64,000 bases of DNA from a virus: positions 1 to 64,000 of IMG/VR virus record IMGVR_UViG_3300023284_001411; one strand, written 5' to 3'. Shown in pieces: positions 2,427-28,234 of this stretch (its first letter is position 1; the number at the start of each line of letters is the position of its first letter). The position numbers and the translations under genes are program-made. A model generated the notes under the pieces. It was not told the origin of the DNA and made no database searches. It saw only the letters and a list, made by a program, of their open reading frames with translations.

Positions 2427-5421
2427 ACTTTCCTCTTATAAAAGTAGTTGCGTCGTCGGAGATAGTAGAAGCGGCGATGTTGCCGGAGTCTCCGTCGTTT
2501 CGTACACGATCTTGAGTTGCGGTCGTCTCTATTTTGTTCCGGGCGCATGCGTACAGCCATTGGATCATAACGTGCATCGGAGCGTTCGCCGCAGGGATCG
2601 CCGAGATCTGCGTCACGGTATCCGTCCGCAGCACGTCGATAACCTCAGTGTTGACCTGGGCCGGAGTCGCCCGGGAGGTGATGGTCGCGTTGATGTTCGC
2701 GCCCGCGAAGGTTGTGGCGTCAGAGAGTATGGAGTCGCGGATCTCATTGACCGCGTCGGTCGCGAGTTCGGAGGCCCCGATCGCGTCGGCCGCGATGGCG
2801 TCGGCGTCAATGGCCCCTGTACCGATCGCGGAGGCAGTGATCGTCCCCGCCGCCATGGCGCCCACAGAAACATCGACCCGCCCAGAGACAAGCGAGTTCG
2901 GCGCCGCCGCGAGCCATTCCTTGACGTCCGCATGGACCACACCATCGGTCTCGATGTTGAGGTCCGCGAACTCGTCCGGGAAGTCGGCCGGCCAGATTTC
3001 ATAGGTCTGGGTCGCCACTGCCTGCGTGAAAGCCCGATCTACCGTGATCGTGTCGGTGGTGAAGTTGAAGTCAGAGATCTTTCTGGCCTGGCCCAGGAGG
3101 TTCCCGGAGGTCATAACCAGCCATCCGCCCTTGAAGAAGTCGGTATCCGCTTGCGTTAGCGCGTCATCCACCAATGTCGTAGTTGTACCAGAATCAGAAG
3201 TCCCACTAACGAGAGCACGATGTAGGTTTTTATTGTCAATTTCTGTTCCTACCTGGGCTGGTGTCGCCCGAGAGGAGATGGTTGCATCAATGTTGGCGCC
3301 CGCGAAGGACGTGGAGTCGGACAGGATCGCGTCTCTGATCTCATTGACTGCCGTGGTGGCGAGCTCCAAGGAGCCGATGGCATCTGTGGCGATGGCCCCC
3401 GCGTCGATAGCCCCCGCGGCAAAGGTCGCGGCTACGATTCCGCCCGAGGCAATCGAGCCGACGGCACCCGTCACCGAGGCCACAGAGCCCGTCACATTAC
3501 CTTGGACTGAGGCCACCCCCTCGCCGAAGGAGCCCGCGCCCACGTGGGCTGAGCGGAGCTCGTCCCAAACTTGGTCAACAATTTCATCGACCGCGTCGGT
3601 CGCCAACTCGGAGGCCCCGATCGCGTCAGCCGCGATGGCGTCGGCGTCGATGGCAGCTGTCGCAATGGCAGAGGCCGTAATCGTCCCCGCCGCCATGGCA
3701 CCCACGGAGGCGTCGACCCGCCCGGAGATCAGGGCGTTCGGAGCCGCCGCGAGCCACTCCTTGACGTCCGCGTGGACCATCCCATCGGTCTCGATGTTGA
3801 GGTCTGCGAACTCGTCCGGGAAGTCGGCCGACCAGATCTCATAGGTCTGGGTTGCCACGGCCTGCGTGAAAGGCCGATCGACCGTGATGGTGTCCGTAGT
3901 AAAATTGAAAGCTGAGATCTTCCGGGCCTGCCCGATTAGGTTACCGGAGGTCATGACCAGCCATGCGCCCTTCCAGTAGTCGGTATCCGCTTGAGTCAGT
4001 GCGGTCGTGTCCACGAGAGTCGTCGTCGACCCAGAGTCGGCCGTGCCGGAGACCAGAGCCCGGTGTAGGTTGTCGTTGTCGAGCTCCGTCGCAACCTGGG
4101 CGGGAGTCGCCCGGGAGGAGACGGTCGCGTCGATATTCGCTCCCGCGAAGGCCGTGGAGTCGGACAGGATGGCATCGCGGATCTCATTGACCGCGTCGGT
4201 CGCCAGCTCGGAGGCCCCGATCGCGTTGGCCGCAATGGCCGCTGCGTCGATGGCACCCGCGACGAATGCCGTGGCGGCGATGGCTCCGGTGGCGATGGCG
4301 TCGTCGTCGATCGCGTCGGTGGCGATAACAGCTGCGGTGATCGTTCCCGCTGCCATGGCACCCACGGAGGCGTCGACCCGCCCGGAGGCCAGAGCATTCG
4401 GCGCCGCCGCGAGCCACTCCTTGATATCCGCGTGGGCCATCCCATCGGTCTCGATCAAGAGGCTGGAGAAGTTGTCCGGGAAGTCAGACGGCCAGATCTC
4501 GTAGGTCTGGGTCGCGACCGCCTGGGTGAAGGCCCGATCAACCGTGATGGTGTCGGAACCCGGGGCGAACGCCGAGATTTTCCGCGCCTGCCCGGAGATG
4601 TTCCCGGAGGTCATGACCAGCCAGCCGCCCTCCCAGTAGTCGGCGTCGCCCTGAGAGAGGGCGTCGTCCACCAGGGTCGTCGTCGAGCCGGAGTCGGCTG
4701 TGCCGCTTGCCAGCGCCCGCTGGAGGTTCGCATTGGTTATTTCCGTCCCCACCTGAGCGGGGGTCGCCCGGGTGGTGATGGCCGCATCGATGTTCCCGCC
4801 CGCAAAGGCCGTGGAGTCGGACAGAATGGCATCACGGATCTCATTGACTGCCGTCGTCGCCAGCTCGGAGGAGGTGATGGCATCAGCCGCGATGGCTGCC
4901 GCATCGATGGCGCCCGCGGCGAAGGCCGTGGCGGCGATGGCCCCCGTGGCGATGGCATCGTCGTCGATGGCGTCGGTGGCGATTGCGGCGGCCGTAACAG
5001 TCGCCGCCGCCATGGCGCCCACGGAGACGTCCACCCGCGAGGAGACCAGGGCATTCGGCGCCGCGCCGAGCCACTGTTGCAAGTCCGACCTGATCCCGGT
5101 GCCGGTGCCGGCGACGAGGGCATCATAGACCACGGCCGGGACGACCATGAACTCATGCCACACCGGAAGATGGGTCGCGACAGCATGCGACTTTATGATG
5201 AAGGAGCCCAGAGTATTCGTGTGGGTCGTCGTCAGGGCGACCGAGTACCAGCCTTCCGCATCGTGCGTTCCCGTCGGACCCGTGCCGAAGGCGCCGCCGT
5301 CCTTAGAGATCTCGGTCGCGGGGGAGCCGAGGGCGGTCTCCTCCGTGACGCCGTCCGTCTTATCGAGGAAAGGCCCAATGCGCTCGGTCTGCGCGGTGGA
5401 TAGTCGAAGCCACCTACTCAT
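2419..5421 (-). CDS. 1000-aa repeat-rich tail fibre/spike-like protein
   Basis: Three copies of a ~220-aa module (SGTADSGSTTTLVD...GWLVMTSGN..GQARKISAF...TITVDRAFTQAVATQTYEIW) linked by AIxxx pentapeptide runs; lies in the structural module. Confidence 0.75.
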   Translation of the reverse strand: MSRWLRLSTAQTERIGPFLDKTDGVTEETALGSPATEISKDGGAFGTGPTGTHDAEGWYSVALTTTHTNTLGSFIIKSHAVATHLPVWHEFMVVPAVVYDALVAGTGTGIRSDLQQWLGAAPNALVSSRVDVSVGAMAAATVTAAAIATDAIDDDAIATGAIAATAFAAGAIDAAAIAADAITSSELATTAVNEIRDAILSDSTAFAGGNIDAAITTRATPAQVGTEITNANLQRALASGTADSGSTTTLVDDALSQGDADYWEGGWLVMTSGNISGQARKISAFAPGSDTITVDRAFTQAVATQTYEIWPSDFPDNFSSLLIETDGMAHADIKEWLAAAPNALASGRVDASVGAMAAGTITAAVIATDAIDDDAIATGAIAATAFVAGAIDAAAIAANAIGASELATDAVNEIRDAILSDSTAFAGANIDATVSSRATPAQVATELDNDNLHRALVSGTADSGSTTTLVDTTALTQADTDYWKGAWLVMTSGNLIGQARKISAFNFTTDTITVDRPFTQAVATQTYEIWSADFPDEFADLNIETDGMVHADVKEWLAAAPNALISGRVDASVGAMAAGTITASAIATAAIDADAIAADAIGASELATDAVDEIVDQVWDELRSAHVGAGSFGEGVASVQGNVTGSVASVTGAVGSIASGGIVAATFAAGAIDAGAIATDAIGSLELATTAVNEIRDAILSDSTSFAGANIDATISSRATPAQVGTEIDNKNLHRALVSGTSDSGTTTTLVDDALTQADTDFFKGGWLVMTSGNLLGQARKISDFNFTTDTITVDRAFTQAVATQTYEIWPADFPDEFADLNIETDGVVHADVKEWLAAAPNSLVSGRVDVSVGAMAAGTITASAIGTGAIDADAIAADAIGASELATDAVNEIRDSILSDATTFAGANINATITSRATPAQVNTEVIDVLRTDTVTQISAIPAANAPMHVMIQWLYACARNKIETTATQDRVRNDGDSGNIAASTISDDATTFIRGKYA

Positions 5422-22148: not shown

Positions 22149-22529
22149 TCACCATGCCTCCAAATTCTCCCACCCTCGCGGGCGCGTGGTGTAGTGAAAG
22201 AAGGGCCGGCCGCAGTAGCGGACGGCCAGGTAGTACGCCCGAGCGATCGAGTAGCCCAGCCAGTGACGACCCCAGAGCATGTGCCGGCGAACGTCTTCCT
22301 GCATGGCGATGAGGAACTTCTTGTCGCAACGCTTCCGCTCTGCCTCGTCCCCGCCCCGCCAGTAGCCGAAGTCGTGGTGATTGCAATCGGCCACGAACAT
22401 AAAGTTCGGGGGCTTGACCCAACCGCCCTTCCCGCCGCAGCCATTGGCGATGTGCTTCTGCTGACGCCACGTGAGATTGAGCCAGGTGAACTTCGTCTGC
22501 TTCTGTCCGTCTTTTACTTCGATAGGCAT
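22149..22529 (-). CDS. Prokaryotic phospholipase A2-like protein
   Basis: NGCG...CNHHDFGYWRGG...RKRCDKKF...YYLAVRYCG; start re-called at MPIEVKD. Confidence 0.55.
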   Translation of the reverse strand: MPIEVKDGQKQTKFTWLNLTWRQQKHIANGCGGKGGWVKPPNFMFVADCNHHDFGYWRGGDEAERKRCDKKFLIAMQEDVRRHMLWGRHWLGYSIARAYYLAVRYCGRPFFHYTTRPRGWENLEAW

Positions 22530-22873
22530 TAGCGATCGTCTCCTGATCCGTGAACAGTGCCGCGCTCCTGCCGGCCCTGGATCTTCTCGATGTTCAAAGT
22601 GGCCACGGTCGAAAAAGGGTAACCCAACATCGTCGCGATACCCGCTACATACCAAAGGACGTCGCCCAGTTCCTTCAGGAGATCCACTCGATCGACAGCG
22701 GGAATGTCATCCCAGCGGAAAACGCCCTGGTCCCGCATCAGCTTGCCAATCTTCTCGGCGACCTCGCCCGCCTCGCCCGCAAGCTTCAGTGGGAGGTAGG
22801 CCGTCTCGTCCATCATGGCAGCGCCCTTGGCGTGTTTGAAAGCTTCAGTTTGGTAGGTGTCGAAGTGTTGCAT
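22529..22873 (-). CDS. mazG: MazG-like nucleotide pyrophosphohydrolase
   Basis: LAGEAGEVAEKIGK, KELGDVLWYVA and NIEKIQGRQERGTVHGSGDDR; start MQHFDTYQ. Confidence 0.88.
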   Translation of the reverse strand: MQHFDTYQTEAFKHAKGAAMMDETAYLPLKLAGEAGEVAEKIGKLMRDQGVFRWDDIPAVDRVDLLKELGDVLWYVAGIATMLGYPFSTVATLNIEKIQGRQERGTVHGSGDDR

Positions 22874-23197
22874 TTTATTTAATCCCATTCTCCCCGGCAG
22901 ATGAAGAACACAACGACACCCAGCCATAGCAAGGCGCCCATGAGCAACCACCATGACCATTTGTCTTCCTTAGAAACGGTCACTCACGTCCTCCCAGTGT
23001 ATACACGTGCCCTCATAGTGGTCACAGCCCACCTCGCGACAGATCGCACAGTCGGCCTCGTTTGTCACTTGGCATTCGCTCAGGACCGGAATGACACTGG
23101 CCACGGAGAACATTACCAGACCAGCAAGACATACGCCGCCCAAGAACATCAGGATCCCGAACATATATCTCATGTTTTTCCTCCTTCGGGAAAACAC

Positions 23198-24213: not shown

Positions 24214-24537
24214 TTACTTACCCAGGACAGAGTCACGAACCTCGTTGGTCACATCAATTGCCAATTTGGTAGCCCCTGCGTCATCAATGAGTTTGGCCCA
24301 GATGTAGTCGACGTCGATGATTGTATAGGTAACGCCGTCGATCGTATGCTCAACGCCGTCCCAACCGGTTAGCAGGACCTTAGCCTCAAGTCCAATTTGG
24401 ATGACGTTCGGCCCGATGGCGACGACCGTTCCGACGGGATCAAACTTCGGCTTTTCGTCCGCTTCCTTTTCCTCGAGCGTCAGGGGCAGAGCGATTCTCT
24501 CAACGACGATGAATTTTCCGAGCGGTTCGAGCTTCAT
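24214..24537 (-). CDS. groES: GroES-like co-chaperonin
   Basis: MKLEPLGKFIVVE...GTVVAIGP...GVEHTIDGVTYTIIDVDYIWAKL. Confidence 0.8.
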   Translation of the reverse strand: MKLEPLGKFIVVERIALPLTLEEKEADEKPKFDPVGTVVAIGPNVIQIGLEAKVLLTGWDGVEHTIDGVTYTIIDVDYIWAKLIDDAGATKLAIDVTNEVRDSVLGK

Positions 24538-24572: not shown

Positions 24573-25064
24573 CTATCCTACCACATGACCCCAGATTTCT
24601 CTTCGAATAATTTTGCTAATAACGGTTTGATCAACATCCCAGATTTCAGCAATCTGGGGAGAAGACAATCCACGTTTCATAAGAGGATCTCTTCTTGAAT
24701 ACAACCTCCGAATCACCCTAACATCCATAGGAGACAACTTTGACCTATGATGATTTGTCCCATTTACCCTTTTGCCTCTTCCTTTTTGTTCACGATCTCT
24801 CGCGTTATCACCATGAGTGCCAATAAAAAGATGATCCGGCCTTACGCATGGAGGATTGTCACAATGATGACAGACGCACAACTCATCAGGAATAGTCCCG
24901 TAATGAAGGATCCAAGAAAGGCGATGTGCATGAATCATTTGTGATCGAAACCCCCGTATCCTCCCGTACCCATCTCTGCCTCGCCAACCTACGAACTCCC
25001 AGCACTCTCCAGCTTTACGGACCTTCTCCCAAAAACGTTTTTCTAACAGAACTCTTCTACCCAT
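24573..25064 (-). CDS. HNH homing endonuclease
   Basis: RFWEKV, CWEF.G, HAHRLSW and VCHHCDNPPCVRPDHLFIGTHGDN; visibly AT-richer than flanks. Confidence 0.9.
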   Translation of the reverse strand: MGRRVLLEKRFWEKVRKAGECWEFVGWRGRDGYGRIRGFRSQMIHAHRLSWILHYGTIPDELCVCHHCDNPPCVRPDHLFIGTHGDNARDREQKGRGKRVNGTNHHRSKLSPMDVRVIRRLYSRRDPLMKRGLSSPQIAEIWDVDQTVISKIIRREIWGHVVG

Positions 25065-25438
25065 TTTCTAACCTCCTTATTTGAGCTCTGAAAACGGGAC
25101 GGATGAGGTATAACCAAGCAATCCACGTTCCCGCACGTGACCCGGTCCAGGGGCTTGGGGTCAGCGTAGAAGGCCGCGGCCACGAGCCCGCCCATGAGGA
25201 TCAGGCGGTCGCCGGTCCTTCGGCAGTAGTCCATGAGCTCGTACGCCGTGCCGGCGGCCCGCGGGGCGTCCCAACCCTCCCCGGGCTCAAGGAGATTGAC
25301 GAAGGTGTACCGGTCCAGGTCCCCGACCATGGCCGTCAGCTGGTCCCGGGCCTTGCCCTCGGGAATGGCCGAGTAAAACGGGCTCAGCTTGTGGATGATG
25401 CTGGACGACTGGACGCGCTCACCGACGAGGTAGATCAC
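25043..25438 (-). CDS. Uracil-DNA-glycosylase-fold (UDG-like) small protein
   Basis: GTG start overlaps the Ro60 stop (GTGA); motifs IYLVGER, FVNLL, LILMGGLVAAAF and VIPHPS. Confidence 0.55.
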   Translation of the reverse strand: MIYLVGERVQSSSIIHKLSPFYSAIPEGKARDQLTAMVGDLDRYTFVNLLEPGEGWDAPRAAGTAYELMDYCRRTGDRLILMGGLVAAAFYADPKPLDRVTCGNVDCLVIPHPSRFQSSNKEVRKWVEEFC

Positions 25439-26958
25439 CCCGTCACGAACTCCCGCAGCACGGACGGCACCGAAGGATCGAAGCCCACGACGTCCAGCAT
25501 CCCCGGGTCGTTGGGGTCGGCGATGGAGAAGTTGTTCGCCAACATGGACACGACGATCAGTTTCGCGTTGGGATTGAGCTTTCGGCGGTACTTGTCGAGC
25601 GCGGCCTTCGGGTGAATGCCGCCGGCCCATGTCTGGTTGTCCGTGTAGACCACGAAGGCATCGACCTCGATGTTCTTGCGGAGCGCATAGGTCATCGGCT
25701 GCGCGCAGTCCGTCCCGCCGAAGGGAAGTTTCGACGTCTTCCGCAGGACCTCGGTATAGGTCATGTCCCGAGTCACCGAGAGCGGTGAGAATATGTGGGT
25801 GAACGCCATGGGCACGCACAGCGGCTCAGTCCTCATAGTCACCAGGAGCATGGCCGCCGCGGCCTCTCGGCAAGTGACCCCGACGACGCCGGCACAGTCG
25901 GCCCAGGTCATGGAGCCCGAGACGTCCAGGCCCAGGAGGAAGCGCTTCCCGGACGGCTTTACCTGGTCGAAGGACAGGCTGAAGGCCTCCTCGACCGCGG
26001 CCGAGATACCCGCGTCCACTTCCCATTTGAGGCTACCTCGCACGCCCTTTCCCTGCTTGTAGGTCTTGAGGGCCGAGAGCAGCTGGATCGGGTGAATACG
26101 GGACCTCTTGATCAGTACCGTGTCCGTCAGCCGGTTTTCGACGATCTTGTTCGCGTCCCAGCGTCCAGGACCCAGGACCTCCCGCGCCGAGAGCGCGCCG
26201 AGGTGCTTGAGGGTCGCCTGGTAGGGCATGAAAGGCAAGAGGGCCTGCCAAACGTCCGTCCGCTTCTTGAGCTCAGGGGTCAGCATCTCATGGGAGATGC
26301 GGCCCGACTCCTTGATCAGCTGGATACACTCGTCGAGGCCCAGCCCTTCGAAGGGGTCGTTCCGTCCCTGGACAATGGCCCGAAAGAGGTGGTTGAGGCG
26401 CCCATTCTTCGGGTGCGTTAGCCGCAGGAGGTCGCGATGTGACCAGCCCTCGCGCTGGATGTATTTCAAGCGCTGATAGTCGACATTCTCCGTGGTTTTC
26501 GACAGATACCAGCCCCGGATCATGCGCCGCGGCCGGCGTCCCCAGCCGCGGAGCTCATTGACGTAGTGGGCGAAGCGGAAGAGGTGAAAGCCCGTGCGGA
26601 CGGTGTTGTTGAAACGGTTTTCAACTATTCGCGCCGCCCGAGGGCTCAACGTACAGAGGGCCAGGGACAGCATGACCGGGTCCGGGCGCGCTGCACGGCC
26701 CTGGTTCCAGATGTCGCAGATCTCCTCCGCTGTTCGCTCAGGATCCTCGGCGAGGCACTCGTGGATCGCCTTCAGGTTCTCGCGAACGAGCGGCCCTTCC
26801 TTGGTGTAGTACGTCCCTCCCTCAGCGCCCAGGATCAAGAACCGGCGGAGCCGTTCGAACGGGTCGACGGTAAAAGAGAACCCTCCCGCGCTGTTTTCAA
26901 CTTGACCCGGGAGGGCCTCACTCTGGGGCGTGTCGAGGTGAGTGGCGTAATCCATCAT
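25435..26958 (-). CDS. rsr: Ro60 / TROVE-domain RNA-binding protein (Rsr-like) with C-terminal vWA domain
   Basis: QVENSAGGFSF, RLRRFLILGAEGGTYY, RGWGR, KYIQREGWSHRDLLRLTHPK, RIHPIQLL, vWA MIDAS DVSGSM, GGTDCAQPM, YTDNQTWAG and MLDVVGFD. Confidence 0.95.
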   Translation of the reverse strand: MMDYATHLDTPQSEALPGQVENSAGGFSFTVDPFERLRRFLILGAEGGTYYTKEGPLVRENLKAIHECLAEDPERTAEEICDIWNQGRAARPDPVMLSLALCTLSPRAARIVENRFNNTVRTGFHLFRFAHYVNELRGWGRRPRRMIRGWYLSKTTENVDYQRLKYIQREGWSHRDLLRLTHPKNGRLNHLFRAIVQGRNDPFEGLGLDECIQLIKESGRISHEMLTPELKKRTDVWQALLPFMPYQATLKHLGALSAREVLGPGRWDANKIVENRLTDTVLIKRSRIHPIQLLSALKTYKQGKGVRGSLKWEVDAGISAAVEEAFSLSFDQVKPSGKRFLLGLDVSGSMTWADCAGVVGVTCREAAAAMLLVTMRTEPLCVPMAFTHIFSPLSVTRDMTYTEVLRKTSKLPFGGTDCAQPMTYALRKNIEVDAFVVYTDNQTWAGGIHPKAALDKYRRKLNPNAKLIVVSMLANNFSIADPNDPGMLDVVGFDPSVPSVLREFVTG

Positions 26959-26977
26959 CCGTCCTTTCGAGAAAAAT

Positions 26978-27110
26978 GCCGAGCAAGTTTGTGAACGCAG
27001 TTTAATAACTGGCGCTCTCGGCTGTCTGAGCTACCCCGACTCAATTGCCGGGGGCAGGTTTCGCACCTGCGACCTCCAGTTCCATGATAATCTACATTCG
27101 TCGGCTCAGC
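26978..27110 (-). ncRNA. Y RNA, YrlA-like tRNA mimic (copy 5 in transcription order, 133 nt)
   Basis: 5' GCTGAGCCGA / 3' CTTGCTCGGC terminal stem. Inside: T-arm GCAGGTGCGAAACCTGC, loop-closed acceptor stem, D-arm TAGCTCAG...AGAGC, AACTGG/CCAGTT stem. 3' T-tract. Confidence 0.85.
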
Positions 27111-27128
27111 AAAACCTATCCAAAAAGA

Positions 27129-27246
27129 ACCGAGCAAGGTGTGACCGTAGGATGTGCCTATGCCATTTGGCGACATCGCGCAAGGCAATGACGGGATTCG
27201 AACCCGCATTCTTCGTGAAAAGATAACCTACAATCGTCGGCTCGGT
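27129..27246 (-). ncRNA. Y RNA, YrlA-like tRNA mimic (copy 4, 118 nt)
   Basis: 5' ACCGAGCCGA / 3' CTTGCTCGGT. T-arm GCGGGTTCGAATCCCGT, CATTGC/GCGATG stem, D-arm GCCAAATGGCATAGGC. 3' T-tract. Confidence 0.85.
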
Positions 27247-27266
27247 GACAGTACTGCAAAACAAAA

Positions 27267-27331
27267 AGCCGAACAAGTTTGTAGCCGAGGGGGATACTTT
27301 ATGATGGTAACCCTCAGCCATCGGCTCGGCT
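27267..27331 (-). ncRNA. Minimal Y RNA (copy 3, 65 nt)
   Basis: AGCCGAGCCGA...GGTTACC...CTTGTTCGGCT followed by TTTT. Confidence 0.75.
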
Positions 27332-27354
27332 AAACAGATTGGGCTCTAAATCAA

Positions 27355-27427
27355 AAACCGAACAAGGTAACGGTCGAAGGGAAAAACTTTCCATATAAAG
27401 GTAACCTTCAACCAATCGGCTCGGTTT
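27355..27427 (-). ncRNA. Minimal Y RNA (copy 2, 73 nt)
   Basis: AAACCGAGCCGA...GGTTACC...CTTGTTCGGTTT followed by TT. Confidence 0.75.
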
Positions 27428-27445
27428 ATCTGAATGTCAAAGAAG

Positions 27446-27508
27446 GTCGAGCAAGTTTGTGACCAAAGGGTAAATGGTATGCTGATAACCTCCAGCCTTC
27501 GGCTCGAC
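27446..27508 (-). ncRNA. Minimal Y RNA (copy 1, 63 nt)
   Basis: GTCGAGCCGA...GGTTATC...CTTGCTCGAC. Confidence 0.75.
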
Positions 27509-27515
27509 TGATCCC

Positions 27516-27545
27516 AGTGTACCATCATCAGGGGTCCGAGGTCAA
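27516..27545 (-). promoter_or_regulatory. Candidate promoter for the Y RNA array / Ro60 operon
   Basis: TTGACC-N18-TACACT with extended TGG; the -10 ends 7 nt before the first Y RNA. Confidence 0.5.
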
Positions 27546-28234
27546 CCCTTTTTCTCGAGCAATTCCTTCTCGCGCTCCAAGGTGAGCTCGCCGGTCATGA
27601 CCCGGGTTCGCAGGAACACGGCGTAGGTGTCCTCCACGTCCCGCGCACAGTAGTCGTAGATCGTCTCGAGTTGGCCCTTGAGCCAGAGGCCGTAGACATC
27701 CTTCCCGACCGTGGCGCCCTTCCCAGGCCTTCCCACGACCCGCGCCAGTAGGTCCAGGCCGCCCGTGCAGCGGAAAGCGCCGAACTCCGTCATCCACTCC
27801 ATCAGATCGATCCGGTCAGAGGTGAACCGGTAGCGGTAACCGAACTTCGGGCCGGCGTAGTAGGCCGGGCACGATACACCGTACCGGAAGGCTGTCATGG
27901 ACAGGAGGGGGAGGTCGAAGCCCCGCCCGTTGAAGTCCACGAGGATCGGGCGATGCTTCTGGACACCTTCCCAGAAGCGCTGGGCAATCTCCTGAGCGGA
28001 ACCCTTAATGACGCCCGTCTTCTCGATCTTGAACCCCGCATCCAGGGCCAGGAAGGCCACGCAGATCGGTACCTGGTAAGTGACCGGGATGAAGTCAGAG
28101 CCCTTGTCCGCGAGGAGGTCCGCCTGGTATTGGCCGACGGTCTCGGAGCCACTCCAATCCTCGGGGTAGCCCCGGGAGTCCCGGATCAGTGTCCCGTCGG
28201 GCCGCGACTCGCAGTCGTAGACAAGGTACCTCAT
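27542..28234 (-). CDS. PolB-exonuclease-like DEDD 3'-5' exonuclease
   Basis: YLVYDCES (ExoI), LVDFNGRGFDLPLL (ExoII), YDYCARDVEDT (ExoIII); start MRYLVY at an ATGA overlap. Confidence 0.85.
   Translation of the reverse strand: MRYLVYDCESRPDGTLIRDSRGYPEDWSGSETVGQYQADLLADKGSDFIPVTYQVPICVAFLALDAGFKIEKTGVIKGSAQEIAQRFWEGVQKHRPILVDFNGRGFDLPLLSMTAFRYGVSCPAYYAGPKFGYRYRFTSDRIDLMEWMTEFGAFRCTGGLDLLARVVGRPGKGATVGKDVYGLWLKGQLETIYDYCARDVEDTYAVFLRTRVMTGELTLEREKELLEKKG

What the first reader, a model, noticed from the sequence alone, without database searches (positions are those of the whole stretch)
25435..27545. Phage Ro60 with a tandem array of five Y RNAs
Seen: the ~570-nt gap upstream of Ro60 contains five units. 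Each starts with (C/T)GAGCCGA, carries (G/A)GTTA(T/C)C-like sequence after a second stem, and ends in CTTG(C/T)TCG plus a pyrimidine/T tract. The outer stem bases covary (GTC/GAC, AAACC/GGTTT, AGCC/GGCT, ACC/GGT). A candidate promoter ends 7 nt before unit 1. Known: this matches the Ro-binding helix of Y RNAs (GGUCCGA/UUGACC), and Ro60 loci usually carry one or a few Y RNAs, a few of them in phages. Inference: one Ro60 ring loaded with five interchangeable RNA adaptors cut from one transcript, forming a modular RNP toolkit.
Basis: partly seen in the sequence, partly recalled or inferred. Interest (0 to 1): 0.88.

Follow-up and report, generated by a model that had tools for sequence, protein, structure and literature searches.

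The report
Phage Ro60 with five Y RNAs
A phage carries the gene for the ring-shaped RNA-binding protein Ro60 preceded by five small partner RNA genes (Y RNAs) in a row; this is real, but it is a rich example of a known partnership, and such rows proved common beside Ro60 genes in phages and bacteria.

Summary
The 583-nt gap upstream of a full-length Ro60 gene (TROVE + vWA, minus strand) in a complete 75-kb phage genome holds five same-strand units. All share one handle: GAGC-C-GA paired to CUUGYUC with a bulged C, a 9-bp covarying upper stem, then UUAYC. Three units are minimal hairpins (65-73 nt). Two (119, 134 nt) carry a YrlA-type tRNA mimic.

A model built from the three short units alone found the two long ones and nothing else in 64 kb. 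The same handle lies on the Ro60 strand in 73 of 80 viral Ro60 loci and 67 of 80 cellular ones, with strong compensatory covariation. Arrays reach 6 units in viruses and 8 in cellular genomes, so five is rich, not exceptional.

A tRNA-like plus a hairpin Y RNA upstream of rsr, cut from one precursor, is published for M. smegmatis, and Y-like RNAs upstream of Ro60 for Thermus phage phiLo. I class this as a new member of a known kind.

The most notable feature is family-wide: the handle resembles animal Y RNAs and nematode sbRNAs, including their UUAUC motif, more than Rfam's YrlA. This scan has already noted that class on other DNA. Expression, processing and Ro60 binding remain untested.

The parts
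27516..27545 (-). Sigma-70-like promoter: TTGACC (27545-27540), 18-nt spacer, TACACT (27521-27516). It overlaps the TGA stop of the upstream PolB-exonuclease-like gene.
   Evidence: Only promoter-like site found in 26800-27800. It ends 7 nt before unit 1.
27445..27509 (-). Y RNA unit 1: minimal hairpin, 65 nt. Handle GUCGAGC-C-GA / CUUGCUCGAC, upper stem GGCUGGAGG / CCUUUGGUC, UUAUC, 18-nt loop.
   Evidence: (82.9 bits with R1). Rfam sbRNA RF01656 scores 22.7 bits.
27355..27427 (-). Y RNA unit 2: minimal hairpin, 73 nt. Outer pairs AAACC/GGUUU, UUACC motif, 23-nt loop containing a small hairpin.
   Evidence: z -3.6; 77.8 bits. RF01656 scores 20.9 bits.
27266..27331 (-). Y RNA unit 3: minimal hairpin, 66 nt. 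Outer pairs AGCC/GGCU, UUACC motif.
   Evidence: z -4.2; 91.7 bits.
27128..27246 (-). Y RNA unit 4: 119 nt. Same handle plus an inner tRNA-like module: canonical T arm GCGGG-UUCGAAU-CCCGU, a closed 6-bp stem, and a reduced D-arm-like hairpin.
   Evidence: Found by the model built without it (39.9 bits; 50.5 bits with R2). The inner part matches YrlA at 18.1 bits and the whole unit matches RF01656 at 26.3 bits.
26977..27110 (-). Y RNA unit 5: 134 nt. Same handle (GAUUAUC variant) plus a YrlA-type permuted tRNA mimic: T arm, loop-closed acceptor-like stem, and D arm UAGCUCAG..AGAGC.
   Evidence: Found by the model built without it (36.4 bits). Full-length YrlA RF02553 alignment scores 29 bits, E 5e-4, below the gathering score of 69.
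26962..26967 (-). Shine-Dalgarno-like AAAGGA for Ro60, directly after the U tract of unit 5.
   Evidence: Read from the sequence.
25435..26958 (-). Ro60 / Rsr ortholog (TROVE HEAT-repeat ring plus vWA domain with MIDAS DxSxS). The likely start is the second ATG at 26955.
   Evidence: Pfam. PDB 2nvo, 1yvp and 9nen at E 1e-97 to 1e-102. D345, S347 and S349 are invariant in alignment A1.

Best explanation
This is a phage-encoded Ro60/Y RNA module. One sigma-70-type promoter probably drives a precursor that holds five Y RNAs and then the ro60 mRNA.

Each Y RNA offers the same docking handle for the outer surface of the Ro60 ring. The handle is a lower helix with a bulged C, a 1-2/6-nt internal loop, a 9-bp upper helix and a UUAYC motif. 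Each unit differs in its distal module: three have short A/U-rich loops and two have YrlA-type tRNA mimics.

By analogy with D. radiodurans, Salmonella, M. smegmatis and Thermus phage phiLo, each Ro60 ring would bind one Y RNA. The distal module would gate the ring's cavity or tether it to a host enzyme, such as PNPase or tRNA-recognising enzymes. The phage would thereby redirect RNA surveillance or decay during infection.

Shown here: the gene, the five units, their shared covarying structure, their exclusive association with Ro60 genes and strand, and the single promoter-like site. Inferred: co-transcription, processing, Ro60 binding, one RNA per ring, and the effector partners.
For: The Ro60 identity is unambiguous and the context is a phage: portal, terminase, tail, DNA polymerase, primase and helicase genes in an IMG/VR record that CheckV rates 100% complete.

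Five units alternate their 5' and 3' arms. All fold with the closing stem, z -2.2 to -4.2. Model R1, built from units 1-3, recovers units 4 and 5 and nothing else. A whole-genome search also finds hits only inside this array.

All 107 R1 hits and all 199 R2 hits in the viral Ro60 loci (and the window) lie on the Ro60 strand. In the hit alignment 96.3% of cells pair, against 39-46% with slid partners, and 16 of 18 pairs show changes on both sides. Without any model, CCGR-N7-10-TTAYC occurs 143 times on the sense strand and 7 times on the antisense strand.

Units 4 and 5 align to YrlA's T, acceptor-like and D elements. There is one promoter-like site and no other in the gap. T runs follow all five units.

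Precedents: M. smegmatis YrlA and YrlB lie upstream of rsr and are processed from one precursor, and each characterised species has one tRNA-like and one hairpin Y RNA (PMC4201824). Purified phiLo Ro60 binds its two upstream Yrl RNAs and forms a complex with host PNPase (PMC12135203).
Against: There is no RNA evidence: no sequencing run could be listed. Neither Ro60 binding nor processing was tested. The window's units do not reach any Rfam gathering score. The host is unknown, so no partner enzyme can be named. The genome has no RtcB, so the RNA-repair link known from Salmonella is absent here. Internal promoters of a non-sigma-70 type cannot be excluded.
Confidence: 0.8

Rival explanations
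1. The array is mainly a cis-acting leader of the ro60 mRNA. Each stem plus U tract acts as a leaky intrinsic terminator, and Ro60 binding to the handles, above all unit 5 which ends 9 nt before the Shine-Dalgarno box, feeds back on ro60 transcription or translation. Free Y RNAs would be by-products.
For: One promoter serves the whole gap. All five units end in a T run directly after the closing helix, and T runs are enriched family-wide: a run of 4 or more follows 24% of units against 4% of random 15-mers. The ro60 ribosome-binding site follows unit 5 directly.
Against: In other loci the same units lie downstream of Ro60 (L035, L056, L058, L068) or on the opposite strand (L159), where they cannot be a leader. 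The conserved, elaborate tRNA-like inserts and variable loops are not needed for attenuation. The terminator scan found no classic terminator. Known Y RNAs are stable trans-acting RNAs (PMC4201824).
Confidence: 0.12
2. The tRNA-mimic units, and perhaps the hairpins, serve mainly as decoys or sponges for host factors such as tRNA-targeting defence nucleases, PNPase or a host Rsr. Ro60 would only stabilise them.
For: Two units display tRNA T and D elements. In related arrays some inserts score as whole tRNAs: L058 4523-4589 and L044 2352-2423, at 46-47 bits. Phage Ro60 genes often sit beside tRNA arrays.
Against: Nothing in this window points to a specific nuclease target. The three minimal units carry no mimic. 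The strict pairing with a Ro60 gene in 140 of 160 sampled loci argues that the RNP itself is the functional unit.
Confidence: 0.06
3. The repeats are not RNA genes. They would be intergenic repeat elements or short protein-coding ORFs (60-84 aa ORFs overlap the gap).
For: ORFs at 26955-27209, 27106-27321 and 27346-27528 (-) and at 27154-27333 (+) exist mechanically.
Against: Variation between units and between loci preserves base pairs, not codons. The ORFs cross unit boundaries. The strand bias and Ro60 linkage hold in 160 loci from unrelated taxa.
Confidence: 0.02

Closest known systems
M. smegmatis / S. Typhimurium Rsr with YrlA and YrlB, and D. radiodurans Rsr with Yrn1 and Yrn2 (Chen et al. 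2014, PMC4201824; Rfam RF02553)
   Same: Y RNA genes lie next to and on the same strand as the Ro60 ortholog. There is at least one tRNA-like Y RNA plus at least one simple hairpin Y RNA. In M. smegmatis both are upstream of rsr and cut from one precursor. As in D. radiodurans, both strands of the Ro-binding helix are recognisable.
   Different: There are five units rather than two (D. radiodurans has up to four small RNAs). The handle carries UUAYC after a 9-bp upper stem, which the Rfam YrlA consensus lacks. Unit 5 scores 29 bits against a YrlA gathering score of 69. The element is phage-borne and the genome has no rtcBA.
Thermus phage phiLo Ro60 with Yrl1 and Yrl2 (NAR 2025, PMC12135203)
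   Same: A phage Ro60 has hairpin Y-like RNAs directly upstream. Yrl1 is described as two hairpins and Yrl2 as one, so it is in effect a short tandem array. Binding to the phage Ro60 and a complex with host PNPase were shown in vitro.
   Different: phiLo Ro60 is too divergent to appear among my PDB sequence hits. No tRNA-like unit is reported there. The window has five units of two classes.
Nematode stem-bulge RNAs (Rfam RF01656) and vertebrate Y RNAs (PMC4450293, PMC4726728)
   Same: A lower helix with a single bulged C, an asymmetric internal loop, an upper helix of about 9 bp closed by G-C pairs, UUAUC at the 5' end of the loop, and a 3' U tract. RF01656 aligns units 4, 1 and 2 end to end (26.3, 22.7 and 20.9 bits). 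Three relatives pass its gathering score.
   Different: The A/GUG-CAC/U motif of the upper stem is absent. The units are bacterial-type transcription units in an operon, not Pol III genes. Rfam Y_RNA RF00019 gave no hit at E up to 10. The window's own units fall below the RF01656 gathering score.
Unannotated units beside 'Ro-like RNA binding protein' genes of cultured actinophages (Cashline, FuzzBuster, Sparky, Sixama, Beuffert)
   Same: Model R2 finds 2-3 units upstream of Ro on the same strand, a mix of short and long.
   Different: Fewer units, weaker scores (18-37 bits), and Ro60 only 38-42% identical.

Membership tests
Ro60 / Rsr (TROVE2) protein | TROVE HEAT-repeat module followed by a vWA domain | tested here: met
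   PF05731 E 5.1e-27 and PF25045 E 4.6e-64.
Ro60 / Rsr (TROVE2) protein | Full-length similarity to structurally solved Ro60 rings | tested here: met
   2nvo residues 14-532 against query 8-507, E 1.3e-100. Also 9nen and 1yvp.
Ro60 / Rsr (TROVE2) protein | MIDAS motif DxSxS in the vWA domain | tested here: met
   D345, S347 and S349 are invariant in the 14-sequence alignment A1.
Y RNA (general: Ro60-bound ncRNA) | 5' and 3' ends pair into a helix with a conserved bulged C (GGUCCGA/UUGACC type) | tested here: met
   GAGC-C-GA / UUGYUC in all five units. In the family alignment the bulged C and the following G are 100% conserved.
Y RNA (general: Ro60-bound ncRNA) | Encoded near the Ro60 gene (bacterial and phage Y RNAs) | tested here: met
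   All five lie within 583 nt upstream on the same strand.
Y RNA (general: Ro60-bound ncRNA) | Physically bound and stabilised by Ro60 | not testable with these tools
   Needs EMSA or RIP.
YrlA (Rfam RF02553) | tRNA-like domain in the order T arm, acceptor-like stem, D arm | tested here: met
   Unit 5 aligns to all three elements. Unit 4 aligns to the T arm and acceptor-like stem, with a shortened D arm. Units 1-3 lack the domain.
YrlA (Rfam RF02553) | Score at or above Rfam's gathering threshold (69 bits) | tested here: not met
   29 bits for unit 5 and 18.1 bits for the inner part of unit 4. No gathering-level hit in the window.
YrlA (Rfam RF02553) | GNCGAAN0-1G motif in the 5' strand (PMC4201824) | tested here: inconclusive
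   Unit 1 has GCCGAAG. Units 2-5 have GCCGAU or GCCGAC.
Nematode sbRNA / vertebrate Y RNA | UUAUC at the 5' end of the loop, after the upper stem | tested here: met
   UUAUC in units 1, 4 and 5, UUACC in units 2 and 3. Family-wide UUA is 100% and the final C 98%.
Nematode sbRNA / vertebrate Y RNA | A/GUG-CAC/U motif in the upper stem | tested here: not met
   The upper-stem 5' strands are GGCUGGAGG, GGUUGAAGG, GGCUGAGGG, GAUUGUAGG and GAAUGUAGA. None forms GUG paired to CAC.
Nematode sbRNA / vertebrate Y RNA | RF01656 gathering score (38 bits) | tested here: not met
   26.3, 22.7 and 20.9 bits in the window. Relatives in L062 (two units) and L036 do pass, at 43, 41.1 and 38.1 bits.

The most novel reading that the evidence does not exclude
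The handle shared by these phage units and by hundreds of Ro60-linked units in viruses, bacteria and some archaeal bins has three parts: a bulged-C lower helix, a 9-bp upper helix and an invariant UUAYC. It would be the same module as in animal Y RNAs and nematode sbRNAs. If so, Y RNAs are one ancient family rather than 'not homologous' lineages (PMC4726728). UUAUC, known only as a requirement for DNA replication initiation in animal cell-free systems, would originally belong to the Ro60 particle. Tandem arrays like this one would then be the prokaryotic counterpart of the multi-member Y/sbRNA gene families. Earlier notes of this scan reached the same reading on other DNA, so this locus adds an instance, not the idea.
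Probability: 0.45. Interest if true: 0.6.

Novelty: new member of a known kind. Interest (0 to 1): 0.36.

Why it matters
For this locus alone the value is modest. It gives a clean, compact test bed of about 2.1 kb with one promoter, five RNAs and one protein. That suits asking how one Ro60 ring chooses among several Y RNAs, and what minimal and tRNA-like Y RNAs each do during phage infection.

At the family level, the survey made here has two implications. First, Y RNA genes beside Ro60 are badly under-annotated: none is annotated in the cultured phages checked, and none in the window reaches an Rfam threshold. Second, the prokaryotic handle is much closer to the animal one than the literature states. 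This bears on the unexplained role of the UUAUC motif.

Tried and rejected
- Rfam at gathering thresholds over the whole window gave no hit.
- ARAGORN found no tRNA or tmRNA.
- Megablast of 20 kb against cultured phages found no near relative.
- A single-protein pattern scan of viral contigs found nothing. The alignment-based scan worked.
- MAFFT alignment of all five units misplaced the 3' arm of unit 4 on an internal CCUUGCGCGA. I therefore built the model from units 1-3 with a hand-set structure.
- Sequencing runs: none was listed for 26900-27600, and no RNA holder was listed.
- Antisense-guide idea for the variable loops of units 1-3: the longest complements in the 75-kb phage genome are 9, 9 and 11 nt, no better than shuffled loops. 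Rejected for phage targets. Host targets could not be tested because the host is unknown.
- RtcB in the phage genome: none.
- Internal promoters between units: a perfect TTGACA lies in the unit 1-2 spacer, but it has no acceptable -10 box at 16-18 nt.
- Host: the large terminase is closest to Pseudomonas siphophage Ab18-like phages at 62.7% identity. That is too distant to name a host.
Full report
**What is there.** The window belongs to a 75,452-bp IMG/VR virus record that CheckV rates 100% complete. It encodes a portal, large terminase, tail proteins, DNA polymerase, primase and helicase. Its terminase is 62.7% identical to that of Pseudomonas siphophage Ab18-like phages, and no near relative exists among cultured phages.

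The ORF 25435..26958 (-) is a full-length Ro60/Rsr ortholog:
- Pfam TROVE and vWA_Ro60 both match.
- It aligns over its whole length to D. radiodurans Rsr 2nvo, E 1.3e-100, and also matches Ro60 structures 9nen and 1yvp.
- The MIDAS residues D345, S347 and S349 are invariant among homologs.

The second ATG (26955) is the better start, given the position of the AAAGGA box and the 506-aa database entry. Upstream lies a PolB-exonuclease-like gene. Downstream lie an HNH endonuclease, a Cpn10-like gene and a MazG-like gene.

**The five units.** On the minus strand the 583-nt gap holds five 5' arms (GAGCCGA) that alternate strictly with five 3' arms (CUUGYUCG). The 3' motif occurs nowhere else on that strand of the window.

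Each unit has the same parts:
- 3-5 outer pairs that differ between units yet still pair;
- the helix GAGC/GYUC, a bulged C, then G-U and A-U pairs;
- a 1-2-nt (5' side) and 6-nt (3' side, mostly ACAAAC) internal loop;
- a 9-bp upper stem with compensatory differences between units;
- UUAUC or UUACC.

Units 1-3 (65, 73 and 66 nt) then close with an 18-23-nt A/U-rich loop. Units 4 and 5 (119 and 134 nt) insert a tRNA-like domain. Unit 5 aligns over the whole YrlA model, covering the T arm, the loop-closed acceptor-like stem and the D arm, at 29 bits and E 5e-4. Unit 4 has a canonical T arm GGGUUCGAAUCCC and a reduced D arm.

All five fold with the closing stem, z -2.2 to -4.2. A T run follows each unit. 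The single sigma-70-like site, TTGACC-18-TACACT, ends 7 nt before unit 1. No classic terminator is found. The ro60 ribosome-binding site follows the U tract of unit 5 directly.

**More than chance.** A covariance model made from units 1-3 only recovered units 4 and 5 across their 67- and 82-nt inserts. The scores were 39.9 and 36.4 bits. Nothing else matched in 128 kb of searched strand. A whole-genome search found no unit outside the array.

**Relatives.** Ro60 is common in cultured phages: 359 records, the best 42% identical, mostly actinophages. The closest homolog in the 5.8-billion-protein collection is 52% identical.

I fetched 80 viral Ro60 loci and 80 cellular ones and obtained these results:
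- In the alignment of the 69 best hits, 96.3% of cells form standard pairs, against 39-46% when partners are slid. Sixteen of 18 pairs change on both sides. The alignment is model-fitted, so this leans toward the structure.
- As a model-free control, CCGR-N7-10-TTAYC occurs 143 times on the Ro60 strand and 7 times on the other. Each half alone is strand-neutral.
- A second model built from those hits found 199 units in the window plus the viral loci, all on the Ro60 strand. It found 177 in the cellular loci, all on the Ro60 strand except the five in L159.

| Units per locus | 0 | 1 | 2 | 3 | 4 | 5 | 6 | 7 | 8 |
|---|---|---|---|---|---|---|---|---|---|
| Viral loci | 7 | 15 | 27 | 9 | 14 | 6 | 2 | - | - |
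| Cellular loci | 13 | 21 | 18 | 12 | 4 | 8 | 1 | 2 | 1 |

Unit lengths are bimodal, about 62-85 nt and about 105-165 nt. Cultured actinophages (Cashline, FuzzBuster, Sparky, Sixama, Beuffert) carry 2-3 unannotated units upstream of their 'Ro-like RNA binding protein' genes. Five units is therefore a rich but not unusual array.

**Family features.** Across 127 distinct units the bulged C, the following G and the UUA of UUAYC are invariant. The final C is 98% conserved, while both helices covary. Handle cores are more alike within a locus than between loci: 0.83 against 0.67 identity, and identical in 32% against 9% of pairs. All five units here share GAGC/G(C/U)UC. This fits local duplication or tuning to the cognate Ro60.

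T runs after units are enriched family-wide but not universal. Some long units in relatives enclose a sequence that scores as a whole tRNA.

**Comparison with what is known.** Chen et al. 2014 (PMC4201824) reported the following:
- YrlA-type RNAs lie near Ro60 in 254 bacteria and 22 phages.
- M. smegmatis YrlA and YrlB lie upstream of rsr and are cut from one precursor.
- D. radiodurans has four small RNAs upstream of rsr.

Thermus phage phiLo has Yrl1 (two hairpins) and Yrl2 upstream of its Ro60. These were shown to bind that protein and to form a complex with host PNPase (PMC12135203). A Listeria phage paper suggests that three abundant RNAs upstream of an Rsr-like gene may be Y RNAs (PMC12282133). 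The architecture here is thus the published design at higher copy number.

What the literature does not describe, as far as I could search, is this particular handle. It aligns end to end with the nematode sbRNA model RF01656 rather than with YrlA's handle. Three relatives pass that family's gathering score. It carries the UUAUC motif reported as conserved in sbRNAs and vertebrate Y RNAs and needed for their DNA-replication activity (PMC4450293, PMC4726728). The same review calls bacterial Y RNAs 'not homologous' with the vertebrate clades. The A/GUG-CAC/U upper-stem motif is not present here, and Rfam Y_RNA gave no hit.

**Earlier notes of this scan.** Several earlier reports on other genomes describe the same class: minimal UUAUC Y RNAs beside phage Ro60, and a soil-phage Ro60 operon with five Y RNAs. 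I reached my reading before consulting them, and my own tests agree with them. This locus adds an instance rather than a new idea.

**Mechanism.** The most likely account (about 0.8) is a phage Ro60 RNP system in which five Y RNAs share one docking handle and differ in the module they present. It would be transcribed with ro60 from one promoter and matured by host RNases, with or without partial termination at each U tract.

The main alternative is that the array acts chiefly as a regulatory leader of ro60. That is disfavoured because the same units lie downstream of Ro60 or on the opposite strand in other loci. A decoy role for the tRNA mimics cannot be excluded. An antisense-guide role for the variable loops found no support within the phage genome.

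**Verdict.** The identification as Y RNAs is supported, while the mechanism is inferred and the rarity was overstated. This is a new member of a known kind, of modest interest for the locus. The family-level link to animal Y RNAs is the part worth pursuing.

Noticed in passing
L004 (IMG/VR, 82,174 bp) and L089 (contig of 82,041 bp in a bin labelled Nitrosotalea sp.): The two loci give model hits at identical coordinates (2028, 2182, 2268) and the same Ro60 match (2501-4057). A phage contig with a three-unit Y RNA array has probably been binned into an archaeal MAG.
   Followed up: no
L058:4523-4589 and L044:2352-2423: Long Y-type units in related viral arrays enclose sequences that pass Rfam's tRNA gathering score (46-47 bits). 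Some payloads are near-complete, non-permuted tRNAs held inside the Ro handle.
   Followed up: no
L160, L163, L136 (Chloroflexota / Anaerolineae bins): Cellular Ro60 loci with 7-8 handle-bearing units, mostly downstream of the gene. These are the largest arrays in my sample.
   Followed up: no
L159:4129-6349: This is the only locus where the units (five) lie on the strand opposite to Ro60.
   Followed up: no
window 24573-25064 (-): An HNH endonuclease gene (PF13392) lies downstream of Ro60, separated from its stop by about 370 nt in which only a mechanical ORF (25043-25819, overlapping the Ro60 3' end) was listed. A Cpn10-like gene (24214-24537) and a MazG-like gene (22529-22960) follow.
   Followed up: partly
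window 27436-27441 (-): A perfect TTGACA lies in the spacer between units 1 and 2, but no acceptable -10 box follows at 16-18 nt.
   Followed up: partly
L143 (bin labelled Candidatus Bathyarchaeota): Five handle-bearing units lie upstream of a Ro60 homolog on a 17-kb contig of an archaeal bin. Whether the contig is archaeal or viral was not examined.
   Followed up: no
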